DNA of 62,087 nt, the filler included, from Basidiobolus ranarum (Eukaryota), in the NCBI GenBank assembly GCA_040143965.1. It is 25 parts of 25 records of this genome, joined end to end, with 100 filler letters (N's around TTAATTAATTAA, not from the genome) between each part and the next. Parts side by side here need not be neighbours in the genome. Positions count along the whole stretch, not along the records: positions 9,988 to 12,382 come from JASJQH010003386.1; 24 more parts are not named here. The stretch is one strand, 5' to 3'. The first letter of the stretch is position 1, and every line of letters begins with the position of its first letter. Under the pieces are notes generated by a model, which made no database searches, was not told the DNA's origin, and saw only the letters and a list, made by a program, of their open reading frames with translations. Positions 9,988 through 62,087 of the stretch are shown piece by piece. Both the position numbers and the translations under genes were made by a program.

Positions 9988-10437
9988 GTTCCAGTTGCTG
10001 GTGTACACGCTTCCATCATTGTTTATACGCTCTACAACCGCGACATGACCTGTTGATCCACAGCCTTGATAGCCTGGCTGAATGACAATGATGGAGGGAA
10101 CTCGTGGTTGACTAGAGACAACCCATCCATTGACATTTCGGGCACTGTTGGGCCAGGTGCGAGCATCACCCCACCACTCCGTATGCTGGCAGGTGAGCTC
10201 ATAGTAACGGGCATCAGCCCAGTCTGTACATTGGCCATTGTTGAAGCGGAAACTGCGAGAGCAAGATGCCAGTACGCTGATATTAGCGAGTTTACTAGAT
10301 GCACCAGTTACCTCAGTTTGGTTTGAGGAACTAGGAGCTGCGACTGCATTGTGAGTTGGTAAGGCCTCAACGGAAGAGGCTATGAAAGTGGCGGCTGCGA
10401 GGAACACACAAGATAAAGCGGATGTAAGATTGACCAT
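9988..10437 (-). CDS. Secreted CHAP-domain cysteine amidase/peptidase, copy 1 (3' end cut by contig edge)
   Basis: Signal peptide (MVNLTSALSCVFLAAATFIASSVEA), Ser/Ala linker, then GQCTDWA, WWGDARTW, GHVAVVE and SNWN. No intron. About 179 aa when completed with the copy-2 tail. Confidence 0.9.
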
Positions 10438-12169
10438 GATGATGTTTAATAGTACGTTTCTAATAGTAATCTAGTACTGGTTTTTAATTGAAGTTCGACT
10501 CTCATTTTTATACTTTTTTCTTGCTTCCCTTCCCCACGTGTGTTGGCTATCGTTCCACATGATTTCCAGATCCCAATCCACCATTTTCCATTTTGAAAGA
10601 TGCACTGACTTCGAGATCCATAAGCGTATACTTCTATGGTTACCAATACTCTACGCTCCATTTATTGACAAATATTTTAGCGAATCAAGATTCAATCCGT
10701 TGTGGCTTTGAGAGGCGATTAGCGGAAGCATAGGTTGCGTTCAAATGTAAACCAATTATGTTAGCGATGAATAGATTAGTCCAATAAATTTAAAGCATGG
10801 TAGTATTGTTAGTAGCTGATTCTAAATAAAGGTTATAGCCATTACTACTTTCTATTGTCTACTTCCCAAGCCTAGAATAAGTCACATGGATGCGTAACTA
10901 ATACTGGTCAACGTTTGTAAATTATACTGATTATAGTAAGGTTGAAAAGATGGCTATTCAATCTAAGCTTATTCAACTGTTTGAAAACAGAAAGGAACTT
11001 TATTGGTGATGGGGTTTTGAAGAATACTACAATCCTTTTTTCGAGATTTGGTCCGCAAGTTAAAATTTGGAATATTTCTACAAGGAACATTTCTACATAC
11101 AGATCATATACTGTAAGATAATTATATCTATACGTACATTGTAAACTAATTTATGTAGACAAATTCAGTTGTATAACGAGGCCAAAATAGTGCCACTACT
11201 ATTGATGTTAAAATCCCATAGGAAATGGTTCGAATTATAGCTCACTCTTGGAAACTACGCTGCCGGTGTACACACTCCGGCTAATGTTTATGCGTTTTAC
11301 AGCGATGGTATAACTAATCGATATTGTTTTATAGTCAAGTTCAATAAATCACATAATTGGCTTGCGAGTGTCCATTATAAATGTGCAATATTGGACTATA
11401 TTTGATAATCACTCCACTACTCAGTATGCGGATAGGTACGATCATGGTAACAATGATTTGCTAATTGCTCAGTAGTAAAGTGAAACATACGAGAACAAGA
11501 CGAAGATTAACTATTGCAAGAAAACATGTCATTGGTGCCAATTATATCGGTTCGCTTCAATAATCTGGAAGTTGTAATTCCATGGTGATTCTGCAAAGCA
11601 CATACTGATGCTAATGAGTTCACTCAGCCTATACACGTTTAGGTCCCGATCCACCTGGTCAGATTGTACTAAAAAAATTGAACTCAATTCAACAAATAAG
11701 GAATTATTAATTAATCCAAAATTACTTGTTTATGAACTAAAAGTTTGTAAAATTTAATGAGGGAATTGGCATGCAGGCTGGCCAATACAAATCTCCGATC
11801 TTTGATCCATTAACCTGGGTCATTCTATGGAGTATTTAAGATATACTTGATTTGTACACTTGTGACCAAATATAGAAATAGCCACATTGGATTGCCTCCG
11901 CATATGCGATTAGCGATCAATCCGGCTAGATCTGATCACAAATTTAATGAATCTCAATAGGATTCAAGAAACTTAGCTTGTTTGATTTCGATCAAGTACA
12001 TTTACTCTTCTACAAGTATATACAAAAGTAGAAGAGTGAGCTGGTATCTGGAAGTACATTTAGAACATTGTAAGAATAGATTACACTTGATTCGATGATG
12101 ATATTTTGATATACGAATGAAATTTATTATTTGTATATTGTAGAGTTTCTTTCCAGGCCAACCATTAAT

Positions 12170-12382
12170 CTATTTATGCCAAAGGAAGGATACACCACTG
12201 CCAGTATTGAAGTTTCCATAAGATGTAGAATAGACTCCACCTTGTCCGTTGAACTTGTAGTTCCAGTTGCTGGTGTACACGCTTCCATCATTGTTTATAC
12301 GCTCTACAACCGCGACATGACCTGTTGACCACAGCCTTGATAGCCTGGCTGAATGACAATGATGGAGGGGACTCGTGGTTGA
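12170..12382 (-). pseudogene. CHAP gene copy 2, 3' end (tandem duplicate with a 1-bp deletion)
   Basis: 12260..12382 matches 9988..10111 apart from one substitution and one missing base just before GHVAVVE. It continues NWNYKFNGQGGVYSTSYGNFNTGSGVSFLWHK* (stop 12170..12172). The indel could be a contig-end error. Confidence 0.75.
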
Positions 12383-19964: not shown

Positions 19965-21123
19965 CATGCGCCTTAATTGTCTCACAGATCTCACGTCGGT
20001 GCCTTTCATCACCACCGCTATTCAAAACTCCGGGTATCAGGCCACCCAGGCCACTGTTGGAGCGATCATGAGTATCAACCCTAATCAACCCGCCAAGGCA
20101 CACGACAGCGTCAACATTGATTCCTAACAATTGACGAACTTTAACAGCAATATCTTCACAACGACCAGATTCTAAGTCAGAGGATTTTCCACCTTGGTTG
20201 AGTGGGTTACTGAGGTTGTCTGGGGAACTAGGAACTCCAGGTGTACCACTTGGCAAACTGTCGGTATCTCCAGTAGGTGCCCCAGGTGATTTAGGAATGT
20301 TAGAACCATTAGGGATAGCATCACCTGCTGAACCTCCAGGTAAGCCATTGGATTCACCAGAAGGAACACCACTTGGCAATCCCTCAGTGAGGCCACTGGG
20401 AACTCCCGAAGAGGTTGTATCTCGGTCATTATTGAGAATATTATCAGCCAAATCCAGGCCAAGGCAAACCTTAGCTTTGATGCCAAGTACATCTATACGC
20501 CCATCGACAAGATTCCTACGACAGTCATCATCCTCATGAATATTCGTGGCATCTCCAGCTGGAGAGCTTCCAGGTTTCGTGGTCTCTTTACTTCCTGTGG
20601 TTTCACCAGTGCCATTTCCAGCTGCTGGATCAACATTTTCTTGACCGCTTGGTACATCGCCATCTCTACCAGCTGGTGAACCAGAGTTCGATGACCCGTT
20701 CCCACCACTGACGTCCTCTCCAGATGGGACATTATCATCAAAATAATGATTTCTACCTTTTCTACTGTCTTCATTATCATAATCCCAATCCTCCTCATCA
20801 TAATGAGAATCATTTCTGTATCTATCATGGTGATCTTCGTATCTGTTACCACCCCGTTTGTAGTCACCATGTTCAATATCTAGGTCTTGGTCATCTCCAT
20901 GATCATATTCACCATGGCGTTTGTGATCTTTGTTCTCCCAACGACTGGCATATTCATCTTGATCGTTTCTCCATCCTGGATATTCCTGGTTGTCCCAATC
21001 CTTAATTACCTCATACTTATTGCTGTGATGAGAAGGAGAGTAATATCTTTCAGCAACACTGGCTCCTGATATGACCGAAGCAGAGGAAATAACAAACAGT
21101 AATTTGATTGAAGAGAAGTGCAT
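19965..21123 (-). CDS. Secreted low-complexity protein with three Cys-bounded hydrophobic LGI repeats, copy 1 (3' truncated)
   Basis: ATG at 21123 (MHFSSIKLLFVISSASVISG signal peptide), then a D/H/Y/R-rich block, G/S/P linkers and C..(L/V)LGI..A.VCL repeats. 386 uninterrupted codons; about 407 aa with the copy-2 tail. Confidence 0.85.
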
Positions 21124-22118
21124 TTGTGACTTGGATTTCAATAGATCAAGAAGTCTATCACAGTTGATATGTGAGATCTTGTAAATGTAAATTTGCTTCT
21201 AATCTAGTTGAAGATTGAAATAGGATACTATTTATTGGTTGATCGCTTTTCTTTTTATATAGAGCTCTGTAAATGTATACTCATGCTCACGGACTACGGA
21301 ATTAGCTTTGCATTGTATGATACAATCTCCGGCGACTCACTAGAGCTGCTTTGATCATTATATTTCCGGGAGAAGAACAAAGAGACTGATTATTCAATGT
21401 AGTTACCCCAGGCTCCTAGTAGATTACTCTATTTTAGTGTATAATTTGTTGTATTGAAAGTATGCAACTACTTGAAGTATCCAGTCCGTAGATTTTACTC
21501 TCCATTTTTCCATTGTTTTGAAATTAATCAAAGTTGCAACACCCGAATCAAACACAAAAAGCCACAAATTTGCCACGATATGTCTATTTCAGTTGTTTAC
21601 GAGGAATTCATACTATTATAATGTTTTCAATATAGAAACTTCAATACTTGATTCAGTTTGGAGTACGTTCCAGTATATGGATCTGTGCAACAAGAAGCTT
21701 GGTACACTGACACATCCTTTACTAAATACCACACTGCAAGAACTGAATCATAGAAGAGATTGTAAGAAGTTTTTTGAACCTAATGTGATGGAATGAGCTT
21801 GAATATATTATACACAGTAAATTAAAATTCCAACTTGGGTCAAATAACCCAAATCAAATCATTGGCGACTGCTATATTCCTTAAAAACAAACTTTAGTCA
21901 GCAAAATTTGTATACTACTAAAGCACCCACTTAAAGTTACGAACAGCTTAGTTACCAGCAGTGACTTTACTAAAAAAACGCATCATGACTAGGCGTAAAC
22001 TGGATGATCTATTCTCTAAACTAACTTATAACCAATAAGATGGGGTATTATGAAGATTCTTGAGGTACTACATGATTATGAGGGTATTGAGGAATTTTGT
22101 AGAATAAAAGTATGAGAC

Positions 22119-22356
22119 CTACACCTTTATCACAATCTCAGGTAAGCATATGACGGCATCCACCGTGATTCCAAGTATGTTGGCATGCGCCTTTATTGTC
22201 TCACAGATCTCACGTCGGTGGCTTTCATCACCACCGCTATTCAAAACTCCGGTTAACAGCCCACCCCGCCCACTGTTGGAGCGAGCATGATTATCAACCC
22301 TAATCAGCCCGCCAAGGCACACGACAGCGTCAACATTGATTCCTAACAATTGACGA
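22119..22356 (-). CDS. 3' end of tandem copy 2 of the LGI-repeat secreted protein
   Basis: 22184..22356 aligns to 19965..20137 with about a dozen substitutions and no indel. It ends ICETIKAHANILGITVDAVICLPEIVIKV*. Confidence 0.85.
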
Positions 22357-38494: not shown

Positions 38495-39764
38495 TTAAAG
38501 CAGCATACCTGCAATAGTAGCACTCATCAAAGTAGACATGGTACCGCACAGCATAGCAGAGAATGCCAGCTCAGCAAGATCCTTTTTGCGAGAAGGTGCC
38601 ATGGCTCCCAAGGCACCAATTTGAATACCAATGGATCCGAAATTGGCAAATCCACAGAGGCAATAAATGCCCAAAGATGCGGTTCGTTCCTGAAGTACAC
38701 CTGAGGTGGTTAGTCTGGCCAGCTCTGCAAATGCTGCGAATTCATTGACGAACATCTTGGTAGCCATCAAGCGAGCAACAGTAAGTAAATCTGCGTTTGG
38801 AATACCCACTAACCACATGAAGGGATAGAATAAATAGCCAACAATAAGCTCAAGGGTAAGGGAGTCTATGTTGAAGAAGTTTCCTAACCAAGTAAGGAAT
38901 GAATTTACCAGGGCTAGAAGGGAAATAAATGATATAACGGTAGCAAGAATCAATAAAGCCAGTTCTATGCCTTGTGCAGCTCCGTTAGAGGCAGCGTGGA
39001 GAAAGTTGGCTTCCTTATCTTCACTCTCGGGAATTCTGACCTTACCCTTGGTAACTGGCTCACCAGTCTCTGGGTAACGAATCTTGGCGATAGCTAGACC
39101 ACAAGGAACTGACATTACACAAGAAGTAATCAATGTTTGGGCATCAACCTTCATCGAAATAAAGGCAACTAAAACAGAGCCGGAAATGGTAGCAAATCCT
39201 GAAGTCATAGCAGAGTGTAATTCACTGCGAGTCATAGTTGCTAAAAATGGAAGAACAAGCAATGAGGATTCACCCATACCAACGAAAGGAGAGGCAGCAG
39301 CAACAACAGACTCGGCACCACTAGTACCCATCAGTCTAACCATCAACCAGGCGAATTTTCGAACAATCCATTGCATACCACCAAGGTAATAAACAACCTT
39401 CACAATGGCAGCGAAGAAAATAACTGCTGGTAAAACTGTGAAGATGAAAATTCCGATGTCAGCAATATCGTCGCTAGTTACAAAAGCTAAGCCAGATTTG
39501 GAGAAATGGAGCAGAGTGGAACACATGTTTGATAACCAGCTGAAAATATCATATCCAACAGATGTCTTGAGAATAAACAAACCAAGAAGAAATTGTAACA
39601 AAACACCAACAACAACTGTTCTCCAGGGAATACTTTTACGATTGTCAGATGTAGCATACAGCAATGTAATGAATACAACGAGGCCAAGGAGTGATCTTAA
39701 TCTGTCTAAGCGACTGCTATGTCCTTCTTGAACAGGAAGAGCAAGAGTAACTGATACAATCAAT
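38495..39764 (-). CDS. Concentrative nucleoside transporter (CNT/SLC28), 5'-truncated
   Basis: WRTVVVGVLLQF, VLPAVIFF, GAESVVAAASPFVG, MTSGFATISGSVL, NEFAAF and LCGFANFGSIGIQIG motifs over 422 open codons. Confidence 0.96.
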
Positions 39765-40594
39765 NNNNNNNNNNNNNNNNNNNNNNNNNNNNNNNNNNNN
39801 NNNNNNNNTTAATTAATTAANNNNNNNNNNNNNNNNNNNNNNNNNNNNNNNNNNNNNNNNNNNNAGTTGATGGAAGAATGTGAATTCATTATTGAATGAA
39901 AGCCCTTCCATGAATCCTCTAATCCAAAAACTCCCCTATTTGTAGACGGTGTTCTTGTTCGCACTATTCGTCCATTCTCTCCGTTGTGATGTAGTGAAGT
40001 CACATTATTATTCAGTGGATTGTGCTCTTCACTTTCCTTCTCTCCCTCTCTCTTTCACCTGATATATTGAATGAATAAAAATGAATAGAAATCCCAATTT
40101 CTTGTGAACGAATATGCATCTAATACTTGGGTAATCACGTGACCCAGGTATTGGTTACTAATGGATACTTGCTGGTGTCCATTCCATAGTTTAATGTTAT
40201 GCCTATTTAGCTAAGAGCAGACGATCTCAACCCACAAGTAGGTCAAGGTCCACTCTACCAGGTACTTCCACTATTCAGAACTAAAGTAGACGGAACTATC
40301 CTCATTGAAACTCCAAGATTTCGATATATTGGTGAAGTTAGATCCCAGAGATCATTTTGTGCGAGGTTTCTAACAATTGAATGGGGGATCCACATACAAA
40401 CCAATTTGAACTAATTTTGTACCATATTCATCCTAAAATTTACACCTGTAGCAATTGGATGGTCTAGACTAGTGGAAGTAGAAATCATCGAAACAAATGA
40501 TTTCCAGATACTTACATGGATTCTTGAGTTTTCCATTACTTTTCAATATCTCCACTTTTATTTCTACTGGGTTTGTTATTATTGTTTTAAAAAT

Positions 40595-40918
40595 ATGCCA
40601 CTCCCGGAGGGAAATATGACCAGTGGTGCACGTTTATTTCGTACTCGTTGTGCCCTATGTCATACTATCGATGTAGGTGGTGGTCATAAAGCAGGGCCAA
40701 ATCTTCATGGTTTATTTGGTAGACGAGCGGGTACTTTCCCCGGTTATACACCCACTCAAGCAGTTATAGATAAGAAAGTCGTCTGGACGGAAGAGACGTT
40801 AGACAAATTCCTTGAAGACCCCAAACAATACATTCCCGGTACGAAGATGATATTTTCTGGCTTCAAAAAGCCCCAATTACGTGCTGATATTATAACTTTC
40901 TTAAAGAAAGTGACCTAA
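40595..40918 (+). CDS. Cytochrome c, divergent, intronless, 107 aa
   Basis: CALCH heme motif, GPNLHGLFGR, W59 and YIPGTKM. The true start is the ATG at 40595, not the ORF-track start at 40472. Confidence 0.93.
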   Translation: MPLPEGNMTSGARLFRTRCALCHTIDVGGGHKAGPNLHGLFGRRAGTFPGYTPTQAVIDKKVVWTEETLDKFLEDPKQYIPGTKMIFSGFKKPQLRADIITFLKKVT

Positions 40919-52275: not shown

Positions 52276-54104
52276 CTAGCTCAGAATGAATCCGGGCAAA
52301 GTTCTGAGTGGATTAAATCTCTCTAGAGCTTGAAAATAGCTGTCTGTGATGTTTTCCATATATTCAAGCTTCACACAGACCCCATTTAGTAATATTTCCA
52401 ATTTCTGAGCCCAAAACAGCTGATTTTAGTTCATTTGGGTCAGCTTTTGTTCCCTAACGTGGCCTAATCTTTTATGCCTTTCTTGAGAGCTTATTTCACT
52501 GGTTTTGGCTAAGTTTGCATGCACAGAGTGCAATTTGTTGATATCTAGCTTTTAAACTTTTGAGTTTTGATTCCAGTATCTGATTTGCTATTATTCTGAT
52601 CTGTGATAGTGCATCCAGCCTAACTGAACACAAAGTTTAGCCCTTGAGTTGTTGCCTGGCTTAACGAGAGTAGATTCTTGGCTATATTTGATACATAGAG
52701 TATATACTCCAATTTTGTAGATGGCCTAGCTAAATTCTGGCCTAAATTGAGTACAACTGTGCCTTTACCAACTGCATCTAGTGCATATTCATCACCTTAG
52801 TGGACTTTCCATGTTTGCATTGGTTTTAAGCTGGAAACCAATCTTTCCTGTTTGACATATGCTGGGAGGCTCCTGAATCAATATACCATGTTTCTGAGTC
52901 TTTATGAGTGGTCACTGATAGGGCAGACACAAATAGATGATCCCTATCAGTGCTTACTTGATGTGCTTGTTCTGATTTTACCTTTTTGGCACAAATCCTT
53001 TTTCTGCAATCTTTGACAATATGGCCTGGTTTCTTGCAATACTTGCAGATGTTTGATTTCCTTTTAAGGGCACCATTACTGAAGCCTGTTGGATGTTTTA
53101 CGGCTCCAAAAAATGCCAGTTCTGTATTATTTTGCAGGGAATTAGATCTCCTGAATTTGTCATTCAAAAGCCTAGCACCTACATATTCCATTGTTAATGG
53201 CTCTGATCTTGAATCTAGGGCAATCATCAAGTTCTCAAACTGATTTGGCAGCCTCCCAAGTAGTGTCATGACTAGGTCATCTTCATATAGAGGTGCTCCA
53301 ATGGATGAGAACTGATCTGCCTTAATTTTTATCTGGTTTATATGATTAAGCTTAGACTCATCAGACTTTATCTGAATTGAGAATAATTTTCACCTAAGAT
53401 ATTGCCTATTTGCCAGACTTTTAGTCTCATATAGTCCCGCAAGTGTTTTCCAAACATTTTGGACATATTTAGCTGATTGTCTGTGTCTCAATTGAGAGTC
53501 TCTGAGATGTAGACAAACTGTAGCAAGTGCTTTCCTCTGCTCCTTGTGAAAGGCAAGGATAGCTTCTGGTGGTCCCTTTGGATCTATTTCTTCTCTTGTA
53601 ACAAATCCTCAAAGCTCCTTGTCTTCTAAAACCATTTGCATCTTGAACTTCGAAAAGTGAAAGTCTTCACCATCAAACTTCTCTATGGATACAAAAATTT
53701 TGGTAATAGTACTGGTAGACATTCCTTTAACAGCTAGCTTGGGGCTCATAACCTGATAAAAGTGTTTAGGGAATTTGAAAGGGTTGTGGACAAGATTTGT
53801 ATTTTGTATCACACACTCAAGTGTTAATGAGTTGAATATATCCTATTTATAGTTTACTATATAATAGGACTATTGAGCATGCTTAGATCATAACAAATAT
53901 GCCAGTTAAGCATGGGTGAAAATTTTAGACGATTTGGAGAAGTTTTGAGAAAATAGTGAAAATTGGTCAAAGTGATCTAAATGATAATTTTAGCAATTAG
54001 AGTGATAAACACATGTTCTTGAATGACTAAATTGAATGCTAAACAATAAGAACATGAATTAATTAACTACTAAATAATGAGTTGTGATATACCTAATTTC
54101 AACA
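52276..54104 (-). mobile_element. Copia family-B 5' LTR (53754..54104), PBS, gag and protease
   Basis: LTR TGTTGAAA..TTTATCA; PBS GGTTATGAGCCCC (53741..53753); IEKFDGEDFHF, CKYCKKPGHIVKDC and WYIDSGASQHM. Inserted in a CMC copy. Confidence 0.92.
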
Positions 54105-59610: not shown

Positions 59611-60711
59611 NNNNNNNNNNNNNNNNNNNNNNNNNNNNNNNNNNNNNNNNNNNNTTAATTAATTAANNNNNNNNNNNNNNNNNNNNNNNNNNNNNNNNNN
59701 NNNNNNNNNNGTATGCTATGCCTATATTGCTAGGGAACCTTAACCTAGTCTGTCAATGTATGGTACTTTGGCATTTCAGCTTTACAAGCAACTGATTGGC
59801 CTTAGACTTTGTGTTCAGATGAAGTCACCATACTCAATATTTTCCTCTTTGGGAATTACAGCTTGTACCACAAGTCACCAGACTTTCAACAAAACCAACT
59901 TGGAAAATGATACATGGGAAATAGATACTGGAATTAGGCTAAAGTTGGAATTGGAGACTATCTTTCAATATTATCCAAATTTAGAAAATATCACATCTGG
60001 GACAAGGTCTAAAACATCAGTCACCAATGATTGTATGACAAAGCTCCAATGATTACCAATTCCTGTGGTCACTATTCCTAGCAGAAAACCAACAAGCTAT
60101 AATCCTATCTCAAACTTCACTACAAATACTGAAACCAAGGAAAACAAACTACTACATGATATTCTGGAATCAAGCAGCTATACAAGTAGTGAAACATTAG
60201 GCAGCTCCGGAAATGCACCAATTTATACCAGAAAACCTGATAATTACTCTGGGGATACTGATAATTTGGAACCAGCTTCTGGAAAGCAGCATAATATATA
60301 TTCAATGAAAAATATTGTAATCCAAAAAAGGATATTTTTCCAGCCAAACAGGAATCAAGAAACTGGGCTCAGAAACAAGGCAATAATTTTCTAATCAATT
60401 GCATACCTATGAAATATCCTACTCCCAATTTGGCTGATATTGGATACAATATATTATTGGAAGTATGCAATCAATCAGAACAAGTACTCAATCAATCACA
60501 AAACCCAGGCAATCATGTCTGAAAAATCCTACCAAGTGGAAATCAGAAACATCCTATAAGTGAGACATCTGACCATTCTACTAAGGACTATGGATGTCTC
60601 AAAGCAGAGCATGAAATCAACAGATTCAATTCAGAAAAAGGGTGGAATATATCTGCATGTATAGCATTTTCCAAACCAGAAAATTTAACACAAGCTCTGA
60701 AATCTGTTGAA

Positions 60712-62087
60712 GTGACAGAATGGAGAAAAACGACTGATGATGAAATTCACTCCCCAACCAAGAATAACACATGGAACCTTGTGGACTTACCTACTGGAAG
60801 AAAGACTATTGCAAATAGATGTGTGCCGAAATTGAAACTTAACTTAGATGGATCTATCAACTGGTATAAAGCAAAATTAGTAGTAAAAGGCTATGCTCAG
60901 AAACATGTCATTGACTATGATGAAACATTTTCTCCTGTAAATAAGTTTACCTCAATCAGAGTAATTCTAGCCATTGCTACCCACCAAGGAATGCTGATTG
61001 AACAAATGGATGTTAAGACATCATTACTAATGGAGAAATTGATGATGCTATATAGTTGGATCAAGCAGAGAGATATGTTGCAAAAGGAAAAGGACATCAA
61101 GTATGCAAGCTACAGAGAAGTCTATATGGCCTGAAACAAGCTCCTTGTGCATGGATTACCAAAGTCAATCAGATCTTCATGAAAAATCTTTTCCATCATA
61201 GCAAAGCTGATCACTGTATATACTGCAAGACTATCAAAGCCATCAAAGTCATAATTGCACTCTATGTTAATGATATCATAATACTTAGTAATTGCTCAAA
61301 TCTGATGAAACAAACTAAGACCTGGCCATCTACCAAATTTGAAATGCAAGATCATGGATCACTAGCATATTATCTTGGAATGCAGATACATCAAAATTTC
61401 ACTATTGGAACACTCTGTATTACACAAGAAAAATATATTGGTGGTGGTCTAAACAGATTCAATATTTCAGAATGTAAAACAGCTTCAAATCCTCTGTGTA
61501 TCCTGATATTCACTAAGGACATCAAACCAAAGGCCTCTGAAGATATTGAAATCAAGAAACATATTCCTTACTGTAGTGCAATTGGAAGTCTCATATATGC
61601 AACTACTGGCACTAGGCCTGATATTGCTACAGCAGTAAGCATAGTAAGCAAATGTATGGAAAATCCTACAATGGAACATTGAATAGCCATGAAACAAATA
61701 ATACACTATCTGAAAGGAACAATACATCATAGAATTCAATTTAGTAAGCAGTACAACATGTCACTTATTTTAGAAGGATATGCTGATGCAGACTGGCTAA
61801 TGATGTAGAAGACTGTGAGTCCCAAACTGGATATGTGTTTAAACTGGCAGGTGAGCCACTCAGTTGGATTAGCAAGAAACAACAAAGTGTTGCATTATCA
61901 GCTACAGAAGCAGAATATATGGCAATCTCTGTGGCTGTTCAAGAAGCTATATGGCTAAGGAGTGTTCTCAAGGAACTAGGATATGATCAAGTTAATCCTC
62001 CCCCAATATATCAAGATACTATAAGTTGTATTCAGAGCACCAAAAATCCTGAGCATCACTCAAGGATTAAGCATATTGACCTAAGAC
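60712..62087 (+). mobile_element. Copia RT-RNase H, frameshifted
   Basis: NNTWNLVDLP, KAKLVVKGYAQ, QMDVKT, SLYGLKQAP, LYVNDII (YVDD mutated), TRPDI, YADADW and SATEAEY. Confidence 0.93.

What the first reader, a model, noticed from the sequence alone, without database searches (positions are those of the whole stretch)
9988..12382. Tandemly amplified, intronless, secreted bacterial-type CHAP hydrolase in a fungus
Seen: signal peptide plus a CHAP domain with catalytic Cys (GQCT) and His (GHV). The contig is one 2272-bp unit, with the tail of one copy upstream of the next and two differences in the 124-bp overlap, so there are at least two copies and possibly a collapsed array. Established: CHAP domains are mainly bacterial and phage peptidoglycan amidases/endopeptidases. 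Inference: a horizontally acquired antibacterial effector, fitted with a secretion signal and three extra Cys, and expanded by duplication.
Basis: partly seen in the sequence, partly recalled or inferred. Interest (0 to 1): 0.78.

Follow-up and report, generated by a model that had tools for sequence, protein, structure and literature searches.

The report
Secreted bacterial-type CHAP hydrolase, Basidiobolus family
This short contig from a Basidiobolus-like fungus carries tandem copies of a small secreted cell-wall-cutting enzyme whose ancestors came from bacteria; it is one more member of a large gene family already present, though not described in any paper my searches found, in public Basidiobolus genomes.

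Summary
Window 9988-12382 is one 2395-bp contig. Its first 124 bp recur at its end (period 2272) with two differences. It encodes an intronless 179-codon protein with a signal peptide and a CHAP domain (Pfam E 8e-16), with the Cys and His intact.

- One of the two differences is a 1-bp deletion that frameshifts the second copy.
- A decayed third CHAP copy lies between the two (11261-11599).
- The gene belongs to a large family. At least 21 protein clusters are named for Basidiobolus meristosporus and 20 for B. ranarum, and some are neighbours by locus tag. The best hit is 82% identical.

The nearest non-fungal relatives are membrane-anchored CHAP proteins of Ktedonobacteria (Chloroflexota), 60-66% identical across the domain. 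In trees all Basidiobolus copies form one clade. Its sister is a small clade holding a Conidiobolus coronatus homologue, and next to both lies a Chloroflexota clade.

The best reading is an old bacterium-to-fungus transfer. The membrane anchor was replaced by a signal peptide, and the gene then went through birth-and-death tandem duplication. Peptidoglycan hydrolysis against neighbouring bacteria is inferred, not shown. Copy number in this genome cannot be tested here.

This is a new member of a known kind, of moderate interest.

The parts
9988..10437 (-). CHAP gene copy A, codons 1-150 (ATG at 10435-10437). The ORF runs off the contig start, so 29 codons are missing.
   Evidence: Translation. 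Pfam CHAP E 8.4e-16. 82% identical over 150 aa to B. meristosporus K493DRAFT_368928.
10363..10437 (-). Predicted signal peptide, codons 1-25, with likely cleavage after VEA before LP.
   Evidence: A 12-residue window with Kyte-Doolittle mean 2.36 starts at residue 8. All 31 fungal family members examined have such a segment, and the ALP motif is conserved. This is a heuristic; no SignalP was available.
10228..10230 (-). Codon of the catalytic Cys70 (GQCT).
   Evidence: Read. Aligned to the GQCT of S. aureus CHAP amidase 5t1q. Invariant in 60 of 60 aligned fungal and bacterial-type sequences.
10045..10047 (-). Codon of the catalytic His131 (GHVAVVE).
   Evidence: Read. Aligned to the GHVA of 5t1q. 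Invariant in the 60-sequence alignment.
10505..10512 (-). TATAAAAA, 75 nt upstream of the ATG; a possible core promoter element.
   Evidence: Sequence read. Consensus-level evidence only.
11261..11599 (-). Decayed CHAP pseudogene, colinear with gene nt 72-442, in the same orientation, with stops in all frames.
   Evidence: Local DNA score 87 against 23.1 +/- 3.1 for 500 shuffles (max 37; 0 of 500 reach it) and at most 33 for other pieces of the intergenic DNA. tblastn E 8.4e-4. 213 of 333 aligned nt identical; GC-to-AT changes 71 against AT-to-GC 27. Against: the family profile HMM scores it only 1.9 bits in one frame.
12173..12382 (-). CHAP gene copy B, 3' part (codons 110-179). There is a 1-bp deletion relative to copy A at 12328/12329 that shifts the frame, and the stop TAG is at 12170-12172.
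   Evidence: 90% identical to P0002 residues 128-179.
12123..12128 (-). AATAAA, 44 nt after the stop; a possible polyadenylation signal.
   Evidence: Consensus-level evidence only.
9988..10111 (.). Head copy of the terminal direct repeat. Its partner is 12260-12382, 122 of 124 positions alike, period 2272.

Best explanation
The contig comes from a Basidiobolus-like fungus and shows one period of a head-to-tail CHAP gene cluster. In gene orientation it reads: end of copy B (frameshifted as assembled), then a decayed CHAP relic, then copy A.

The intact gene encodes a 179-aa pre-protein. It has a cleavable signal peptide, a short low-complexity linker, and a single CHAP (peptidase C51) papain-like domain. 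The domain has Cys70, His131, Asn148 and Asn150 in the positions used by solved CHAP peptidoglycan amidases and endopeptidases.

The family descends from CHAP proteins of the kind that Ktedonobacteria (Chloroflexota) carry behind a cytoplasmic N-terminus and one membrane helix. After an old transfer into the fungal lineage, that anchor was replaced by a eukaryotic signal peptide. The gene's composition drifted towards the host's. The gene multiplied by tandem duplication with frequent death of copies.

Shown: domain identity, residue conservation, fold, fungal location, the nearest bacterial relatives, the paralogue number, and the relic.

Inferred: the protein is exported and cuts the peptide part of bacterial peptidoglycan, which lets the fungus kill, restrain or digest the bacteria it lives among in gut contents, dung and soil.
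For: CHAP identity:
- Pfam CHAP scores 58.7 bits against a cutoff of 26. PDB sequence hits are S. aureus CHAP amidase 5t1q (E 1.6e-7) and S. saprophyticus CHAP 2k3a.
- The AlphaFold model of the full-length orthologue P0002 has a core pLDDT of 95-98. Its 20 Foldseek hits with E <= 1e-3 are led by 5t1q (9.4e-7), the phage phi812 CHAP, and LysGH15/LysK CHAP.
- C70, H131, E136, S147 and N150 are invariant in 60 fungal and bacterial-type sequences.

Fungal origin:
- 41 of the 120 best named hits are Basidiobolus (21 B. meristosporus, 20 B. ranarum). The other organism names are all Chloroflexota (5 hits), and no other eukaryote is listed.
- The homologues sit on scaffolds of 83-268 kb.
- The CDS has GC 0.49 and its flanks 0.33-0.34. 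The mean fungal-gene GC reported for B. meristosporus is 0.4865 (PMC7466969, passages).

Bacterial relatives:
- 404 relatives were found in bacterial and archaeal genomes. Of the 69 best loci, 66 are Chloroflexota, mostly Ktedonobacteria, at up to 66% identity over residues 64-150; 3 are Bifidobacteriaceae at 42-45%.
- Quick tree, 126 rows: all 42 Basidiobolus rows form one clade, SH-aLRT 95.
- Careful tree, 79 rows: Basidiobolus 93/87; joined with Conidiobolus-like rows at 90/88; next to a 33-row Chloroflexota clade, with two further Ktedonobacteraceae paralogues branching deeper.

Architecture change: 31 of 31 fungal sequences examined have an N-terminal signal-like segment. 16 of 16 bacterial-type representatives have none, but have an internal hydrophobic helix at residues 52-158.

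Tandem birth and death:
- The terminal repeat and the relic on this contig.
- Consecutive B. ranarum locus tags: 016307/8 on a 3253-bp contig, 005993/4/5, 012408/9 and 005503/4.
- Many B. meristosporus/B. ranarum orthologue pairs in the tree.
Against: - No expression, secretion or enzyme data exist here.
- CHAP domains also include non-peptidoglycan amidases. Glutathionylspermidine amidase appears lower in the Foldseek list.
- The contig is only 2.4 kb and carries no other fungal gene, so its linkage to fungal DNA rests on homologues in other assemblies.
- Nesting of the fungal clade inside Chloroflexota is not established. Holding the Chloroflexota rows and the 6 bacterial-looking unnamed rows together as one clade costs 3.3 log-likelihood units, p-AU 0.41. 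The direction of transfer therefore rests on taxonomic distribution.
- Branch supports around the fungal/Chloroflexota join are moderate (85/69, 92/84), and only 119 columns were used.
- The model of the window's own truncated 150-aa protein was mediocre (pLDDT 68.6) and gave no Foldseek hit with E <= 1e-3, although the top hits were the same CHAP structures.
- Copy B's frameshift sits near a contig end and could be a sequencing error or a real lesion.
Confidence: 0.7

Rival explanations
1. The terminal overlap does not reflect an amplified array. The contig is a mis-joined or self-overlapping assembly of a single locus (two alleles, or error-rich ends), and this genome has one functional copy plus the old relic.
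For: The two differences lie in the last 124 bp of a small contig. One is a 1-bp deletion that would kill the gene, as sequencing errors often do. No read depth is available. Only a 123-bp piece of copy B overlaps copy A.
Against: - 23 of the 25 contigs show no head/tail overlap. The one other that does has 10 substitutions in 173 bp, which is real divergence between copies rather than error.
- The relic between the copies proves at least one earlier tandem duplication at this locus.
- Adjacent paralogues are the rule in B. ranarum.
Confidence: 0.3
2. The enzyme is secreted but is not an antibacterial weapon. It may harvest nutrients from dead bacterial walls, trim peptidoglycan fragments that a host would sense, or hydrolyse a non-peptidoglycan amide or peptide substrate.
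For: - CHAP chemistry is generic for gamma-glutamyl and other amide bonds. GSP amidase and trypanothione synthetase-amidase are structural relatives.
- There is no cell-wall-binding domain: Pfam finds only CHAP in 15 of 15 family members scanned.
- The bacterial relatives are membrane-anchored and sit in a housekeeping context next to malate/lactate dehydrogenase, as autolysins do rather than toxins.
Against: - The closest structural and sequence matches are all peptidoglycan hydrolases.
- Expansion to about 20 diverging paralogues, some with new N-terminal modules, fits an arms-race or target-range role better than scavenging. This is inference.
Confidence: 0.3
3. The contig is bacterial contamination of the fungal assembly.
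For: It is a very short contig carrying a domain that is mostly bacterial or phage, with no other gene on it.
Against: - It is 82% identical to a B. meristosporus protein on a 160,813-bp scaffold. The best bacterial loci are at most 66% identical, and only over the domain.
- A single-protein scan of 185,579 bacterial and archaeal species genomes found no close relative.
- The flanks are AT-rich (GC 0.33-0.34) with no long ORFs.
- It has a signal peptide of the fungal family type instead of the bacterial anchor.
Confidence: 0.02
4. The gene is an ancient eukaryotic gene inherited vertically and lost from most lineages, not a transfer.
For: - A Conidiobolus coronatus homologue and two unnamed eukaryote-looking proteins group with Basidiobolus.
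- The AU test does not exclude the fungal clade lying outside all sampled Chloroflexota.
Against: - Among the 120 best named hits, the only eukaryote is Basidiobolus.
- The profile search of 1.84 billion representatives drops from at least 213 bits for the Basidiobolus type to at most 172 bits. After one further Basidiobolus protein (P0047), the hits are proteins with the Ktedonobacteria architecture.
- Domain identity to Ktedonobacteria of 60-66% is far above what a split between the domains of life would leave.
- The gene is intronless, where Basidiobolus genes have a median of 2 introns (PMC7466969, passages).
Confidence: 0.05

Closest known systems
Basidiobolus 'Peptidase C51 domain-containing' hypothetical proteins (e.g. 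B. meristosporus K493DRAFT_368928 and 349802; B. ranarum K7432_011490)
   Same: Same family and architecture: signal peptide, linker and CHAP, 161-181 aa in the nearest subclade, with the same three extra Cys. The window gene is 82% identical to K493DRAFT_368928 and 93% identical over the 118 tree columns compared.
   Different: It comes from a different genome or species. Here the locus also shows a frameshifted second copy and a decayed relic. These database entries are unnamed hypothetical proteins, and my searches found no paper on them.
Ktedonobacteria (Thermogemmatispora, Dictyobacter, Ktedonobacter) membrane-anchored CHAP proteins
   Same: The CHAP domain, including the roughly 27-residue C-terminal beta extension, is 60-66% identical. 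They also occur as tandem paralogues, for example two side by side in T. carboxidivorans.
   Different: The bacterial proteins are 250-410 aa, with a long Q/P-rich N-terminus, one internal membrane helix and a conserved linker motif. The fungal ones replace all that with a signal peptide. The bacterial genes have GC 0.57 and GC3 0.64, against 0.525 and 0.517 for the same region here.
Staphylococcal and phage CHAP peptidoglycan hydrolases (5t1q, 2k3a, phi812 hub CHAP, LysK/LysGH15 CHAP, PcsB)
   Same: Same fold and the same Cys-His active-site layout. They are the best structural matches, with probability 1.0 and TM (query) about 0.5.
   Different: Only 17-29% identical. Those enzymes usually carry SH3b, LysM or amidase partner domains, which this protein lacks. 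The calcium site of LysK was not examined.
Saprolegnia parasitica secreted CHAP family (7 genes)
   Same: A secreted CHAP family in a eukaryote, proposed to come from bacteria and expanded by repeated duplication (PMC3681718, passages).
   Different: That is an oomycete, not a fungus. Its relationship to the Basidiobolus clade was not tested here, and no Saprolegnia protein appeared among the 120 best hits.
Tick dae2 (domesticated amidase effector) and other transferred antibacterial genes in eukaryotes
   Same: The same concept: a bacterial cell-wall amidase gene taken up by a eukaryote and used against bacteria (bioRxiv 10.1101/2020.04.10.036376, abstract).
   Different: dae2 derives from type VI secretion amidase effectors, not from this CHAP subfamily. 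It has experimental proof of function, which is lacking here.

Membership tests
CHAP domain (Pfam PF05257, MEROPS C51) | Score above Pfam's gathering threshold | tested here: met
   58.7 bits against 26, E 8.4e-16, profile positions 6-80 of 81.
CHAP domain (Pfam PF05257, MEROPS C51) | Nucleophile Cys at the start of the first helix | tested here: met
   Cys70 in GQCT aligns to the GQCT of 5t1q. It is invariant in 60 sequences, and helix 70-82 starts at it in the models.
CHAP domain (Pfam PF05257, MEROPS C51) | Catalytic His on a beta strand | tested here: met
   His131 in GHVAVVE aligns to the GHVAFVE of 5t1q. It is invariant, and strand 131-138 is present in the models.
CHAP domain (Pfam PF05257, MEROPS C51) | Third polar residue (Glu/Asn/Asp) orienting the His | tested here: inconclusive
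   Asn148 aligns to a Glu of 5t1q. Position 148 is N or D in the Basidiobolus family, and Asn150 is invariant. Which of these residues completes the triad in solved CHAP enzymes is recalled, not checked.
CHAP domain (Pfam PF05257, MEROPS C51) | Papain-like alpha+beta fold | tested here: met
   The model of orthologue P0002 (core pLDDT 95-98) gives 20 PDB matches with E <= 1e-3, led by CHAP structures.
CHAP domain (Pfam PF05257, MEROPS C51) | Amidase or endopeptidase activity on peptidoglycan | not testable with these tools
   Needs the enzyme and muropeptide analysis.
Horizontally acquired bacterial gene in a fungus | The nearest relatives outside the recipient lineage are bacterial, and distribution in eukaryotes is patchy | tested here: met
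   66 of the 69 best loci are Chloroflexota. The named eukaryotes are only Basidiobolus (41 of the 120 best hits) and Conidiobolus coronatus.
Horizontally acquired bacterial gene in a fungus | The recipient clade is nested within donor diversity | tested here: inconclusive
   The ML tree places the fungi beside a 33-row Chloroflexota clade, with two Ktedonobacteraceae paralogues deeper. The alternative with all Chloroflexota together is not rejected, p-AU 0.41.
Horizontally acquired bacterial gene in a fungus | Physical linkage to native fungal genes | tested here: inconclusive
   The window contig has no other gene. Homologues lie on B. meristosporus scaffolds of 83-268 kb, but I could not read those scaffolds.
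Tandem gene array | Two or more head-to-tail copies on one molecule | tested here: met
   Copy B tail, relic and copy A lie in one orientation on one contig.
Tandem gene array | More than two near-identical units (a collapsed array) | not testable with these tools
   Needs read depth or long reads.

The most novel reading that the evidence does not exclude
Basidiobolus and Conidiobolus share a single old capture of a Ktedonobacteria-type autolysin. In Basidiobolus it was turned into an arsenal of 20 or more secreted lysins. These have diverging subfamilies, with extra disulfide Cys in one and new Cys-rich N-terminal modules in another. The arsenal is kept turning over by tandem birth and death, of which this contig is a snapshot. 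The arsenal is a main means by which this gut fungus shapes the bacterial community around it.
Probability: 0.3. Interest if true: 0.6.

Novelty: new member of a known kind. Interest (0 to 1): 0.4.

Why it matters
Basidiobolus lives in amphibian and reptile guts among dense bacteria, and 2-5% of its genes have been reported as bacterial in origin (PMC7466969, passages). A large, diversified family of secreted cell-wall hydrolases of bacterial ancestry would be a concrete, testable tool of fungal-bacterial antagonism, and a source of small lysins with no binding domain. The likely donor group, Ktedonobacteria, and the swap of a membrane anchor for a signal peptide give a clean example of how a bacterial housekeeping enzyme can become a eukaryotic secreted factor. 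The window itself adds little beyond another member and a view of the locus's turnover.

Tried and rejected
- A single-protein scan of bacterial and archaeal genomes found no close relative. An alignment query was needed.
P0125 and P0173, which look eukaryotic and sit next to the Conidiobolus sequences, remain unidentified.
- The supplementary tables of PMC7466969, which list the HGT candidates, could not be read. Whether these CHAP genes are among the 806 candidates is unknown.
- Plain blastn of gene against relic found only a 41-nt match. The family HMM on six-frame translations scored the relic at 1.9 bits. The relic was established only by gapped local DNA alignment with shuffles and by tblastn.
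- The model of the truncated 150-aa window protein was too incomplete for significant Foldseek E-values. The full-length orthologue was used instead.
- Pfam found no domain in the N-terminal extensions of longer family members.
- Literature searches found no paper that treats this family: Basidiobolus with CHAP gave 0 papers. Basidiobolus with HGT and peptidoglycan gave 3 papers, of which the 2 listed were unrelated. The Conidiobolus/Entomophthoromycotina search with 'CHAP domain' or 'peptidase C51' gave 83 papers with at least 2 of the 4 terms; the 10 listed have zero occurrences of either phrase. PMC8778642 and PMC11291939 do not mention C51 (passages).
- No complex prediction or atlas search was made, because nothing here called for one.
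Full report
**What the window is.** The 62,087-base window is not one locus. It is 25 small contigs (2377-2398 bp, sorted by length) joined by N-TTAATTAATTAA-N spacers. The finding covers exactly one of them, 9988-12382 (2395 bp). Elsewhere in the window I saw copia-type retrotransposon fragments, a nucleoside transporter and a cytochrome c, which fits a fragmented eukaryotic assembly. Window GC is 0.36.

**Checking the observation.**
- The first 124 bases of the contig recur at its end (12260-12382), with a period of 2272 bp. There are two differences.
- One difference is an A/G change that is synonymous. The other is a 1-bp deletion in the end copy, which shifts the reading frame after ...QGCG.
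- Only 2 of the 25 contigs have such a head/tail overlap. The other one (19965-22356) overlaps by 173 bp with 10 substitutions. The overlaps are therefore not a fixed k-mer artefact and look like diverged tandem copies.
- On the minus strand, an ORF starts at ATG 10437 and runs off the contig start after 150 codons. The end copy supplies 29 further codons and a TAG stop at 12170-12172.
- The 179-aa total matches the length of the best homologue and aligns to it without gaps, so the gene is uninterrupted here.
- Pfam calls a CHAP domain at 58.7 bits against a cutoff of 26.
- The three extra cysteines (59, 83, 126) are real and are shared by 14 of 14 members of the nearest subclade.

Between the two copies, in the same orientation, lies a decayed CHAP copy at about 11261-11599.
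- For it: tblastn with the gene product finds two colinear pieces (E 8.4e-4). A gapped local DNA alignment against the gene scores 87, compared with 23.1 +/- 3.1 for 500 shuffles (max 37) and at most 33 for other pieces of the intergenic DNA.
- Its state: 213 of 333 aligned bases are identical, every frame has stops, and changes run mostly from G/C to A/T (71 against 27).
- Against it: plain blastn saw only 41 nt, and the family HMM scored one frame at 1.9 bits. The case rests on the colinear alignment.
- In gene orientation the contig therefore reads: copy B tail, relic, copy A.

**Whose gene it is.**
- A search of named proteins gives 39 hits. The first 32 are all Basidiobolus meristosporus CBS 931.73 or B. 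ranarum, and the best is 82% identical over all 150 residues.
- With a profile of the family, 41 of the 120 best hits are Basidiobolus (21 B. meristosporus clusters, 20 B. ranarum). The only other organism names are Chloroflexota, Ktedonobacteraceae and Thermogemmatispora (5 hits). The rest are unnamed, and no other eukaryote is listed.
- The B. meristosporus homologues sit on scaffolds of 83-268 kb.
- B. ranarum has runs of consecutive locus tags: 016307/8 on a 3.3-kb contig, 005993/4/5, 012408/9 and 005503/4. Tandem arrangement is thus typical of the family.
- The window gene's CDS has GC 0.49 and its flanks 0.33-0.34. Tabima et al. give 0.4865 as the mean for fungal genes of B. meristosporus (PMC7466969, passages).
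- Contamination is therefore very unlikely.

**Where the family came from.**
- A profile search of 1.84 billion representatives gives 2686 hits. Twelve Basidiobolus-type proteins score 213 bits or more. The next, P0047 (172 bits), is also a named Basidiobolus protein. From 162 bits down, the 7 of the 8 next representatives I read (P0048-P0054) are proteins of about 300-360 aa with a Q/P-rich N-terminus, one membrane helix and a C-terminal CHAP domain; the eighth (P0055, 254 aa) lacks the long N-terminus.
- Scanning one genome per bacterial and archaeal species with an alignment found 404 relatives. Of the 69 best loci, 66 are Chloroflexota. These are mostly Ktedonobacteria such as Thermogemmatispora, Dictyobacter and Ktedonobacter, with up to 66% identity over residues 64-150. 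The other 3 are Bifidobacteriaceae at 42-45%.
- In a quick tree of 126 rows, all 42 Basidiobolus rows form one clade (SH-aLRT 95).
- Three long-branched unnamed representatives sat beside that clade. One of them is 87% identical to Conidiobolus coronatus CONCODRAFT_2635.
- I then built a careful tree of 79 rows. It used 30 of the 42 Basidiobolus rows, 35 of the 66 Chloroflexota loci, the 3 Bifidobacteriaceae as outgroup, 3 Conidiobolus-like rows and 8 unnamed rows.
  - Basidiobolus is supported at 93/87.
  - It joins a Conidiobolus-like/P0125/P0173 clade at 90/88.
  - This sits beside a 33-row Chloroflexota clade.
  - Two further Ktedonobacteraceae paralogues branch deeper.
- An AU test does not reject putting all the Chloroflexota and bacterial-looking rows together (p 0.41). 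The fungi are closest to Ktedonobacteria, but nesting within them is not proven.
- Direction of transfer follows from distribution: hundreds of bacterial genomes against two fungal genera.
- Many B. meristosporus/B. ranarum orthologue pairs lie inside the fungal clade, and there is a Conidiobolus relative. The transfer and much of the expansion are therefore old, not recent.
- Composition agrees with this. The domain region has GC3 of 0.52 here against a mean of 0.64 in 16 Ktedonobacteria loci.

**How the protein is built.**
- All 31 fungal family members that I examined begin with a hydrophobic segment in the first 20 residues followed by a conserved A-L-P. I left out models that looked N-terminally truncated or differently started, for example P0008, P0009, P0019, P0031, P0041, P0042 and P0045-P0047.
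- All 16 bacterial-type representatives examined lack this segment and instead have an internal helix at residues 52-158. This is a hydropathy heuristic, not a trained predictor.
- The bacterial anchor thus appears to have been exchanged for a signal peptide.
- Cys70, His131, Glu136, Ser147 and Asn150 are invariant in 60 fungal and bacterial-type sequences. In the alignment to the S. aureus CHAP amidase 5t1q, GQCT and GHVA match, and Asn148 falls on a Glu.
- The model of the full-length orthologue has a core pLDDT of 95-98. It shows that the 29-residue tail missing from copy A forms the last beta strands of the domain. Its best PDB matches are CHAP peptidoglycan hydrolases (5t1q at E 9.4e-7, phi812, LysGH15, LysK, PcsB). 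Glutathionylspermidine amidases come lower in the list.
- Pfam finds nothing but CHAP in 15 of 15 family members scanned, so there is no recognisable wall-binding module.

**How it most likely works.**
- Shown: this is an intact CHAP cysteine hydrolase gene of a fungal multigene family with bacterial ancestry. It sits in a locus that has duplicated at least twice and lost at least one copy.
- Inferred: the pre-protein is exported, the signal peptide is removed after residue 25, and the 154-residue enzyme cuts amide or peptide bonds in the stem or cross-bridge of bacterial peptidoglycan.
- For a fungus that lives in gut contents and dung among bacteria, this would serve to kill, restrain or digest them.
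- The size and divergence of the family suggest selection for range of targets: there are subfamilies with extra Cys, with N/S-rich linkers, and with a Cys-rich N-terminal module.
- I put about 0.9 on the identity and ancestry. I put about 0.55 on an antibacterial role as opposed to scavenging or another substrate.

**Comparison with what is known.**
- The gene is a member of the CHAP family by score, catalytic residues and fold.
- Its closest named relatives are unannotated Basidiobolus 'Peptidase C51 domain-containing' proteins already in public databases.
- The concept is established. Secreted CHAP genes of presumed bacterial origin were reported expanded in the oomycete Saprolegnia parasitica (PMC3681718, passages). 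Ticks use a transferred amidase, dae2, against bacteria (bioRxiv 10.1101/2020.04.10.036376, abstract). Basidiobolus is known for abundant bacterial-derived, mostly intronless genes (PMC7466969, passages).
- I found no paper that names this CHAP family in Basidiobolus or Conidiobolus. I could not read the supplementary candidate lists of PMC7466969.

**Verdict.** It is a new member of a known kind, with a probable Ktedonobacteria-like source and a visible birth-and-death locus as the added points. Copy number in this genome, expression, secretion and activity remain untested.

Noticed in passing
window 19965-22356: A second contig with a head/tail overlap: 173 bp, 10 substitutions, no indels, implying a tandem unit of about 2219 bp. 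It carries a 411-codon ORF (21198->19966, minus strand) that runs off the contig start and has no Pfam or PDB match.
   Followed up: partly
window 11261-11599: In the CHAP relic, substitutions relative to the live gene are strongly biased from G/C to A/T (71 against 27), and 73 of 120 are transitions (C>T 28, G>A 26). This could be simple decay towards the AT-rich background or a RIP-like process. The two were not distinguished.
   Followed up: partly
proteins P0020, P0021, P0025, P0033 (Basidiobolus): One Basidiobolus CHAP subfamily has a Cys-rich module of about 60 residues after the signal peptide, then an N-rich linker. Pfam finds no domain there. It may be a new binding module.
   Followed up: partly
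proteins P0266, P0167, P0265, P0173, P0125: Conidiobolus coronatus CONCODRAFT_2635 and several unnamed, eukaryote-looking proteins (signal peptide, Q/N- or P-rich repeats, C-terminal CHAP) form the sister group of the Basidiobolus clade. The organisms of P0173 and P0125 could not be named.
   Followed up: partly
L004 841-3339 (Thermogemmatispora carboxidivorans): Two CHAP genes (350 and 309 aa) lie in tandem next to a malate/lactate dehydrogenase gene. Across the 69 bacterial loci, 95 ORFs matched the CHAP profile, so tandem paralogues also occur in the putative donor group.
   Followed up: partly
window 52829-53389 and 60523-61679: Fragments of copia-type LTR retrotransposons (gag, zinc knuckle, RVT_2). 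The RVT_2 part is split over two overlapping frames.
   Followed up: no
window 38498-39763 and 40415-40915: An uninterrupted 422-codon concentrative nucleoside transporter ORF (Pfam E 9e-78) and a cytochrome c-like ORF. These are ordinary genes on other contigs of the same assembly.
   Followed up: no
protein P0014 (B. ranarum K7432_013800): A family member with an extra C-terminal S/T-rich stretch ending in a hydrophobic tail (19-residue hydropathy 2.18 at residue 201). It may be a membrane- or GPI-anchored variant.
   Followed up: no
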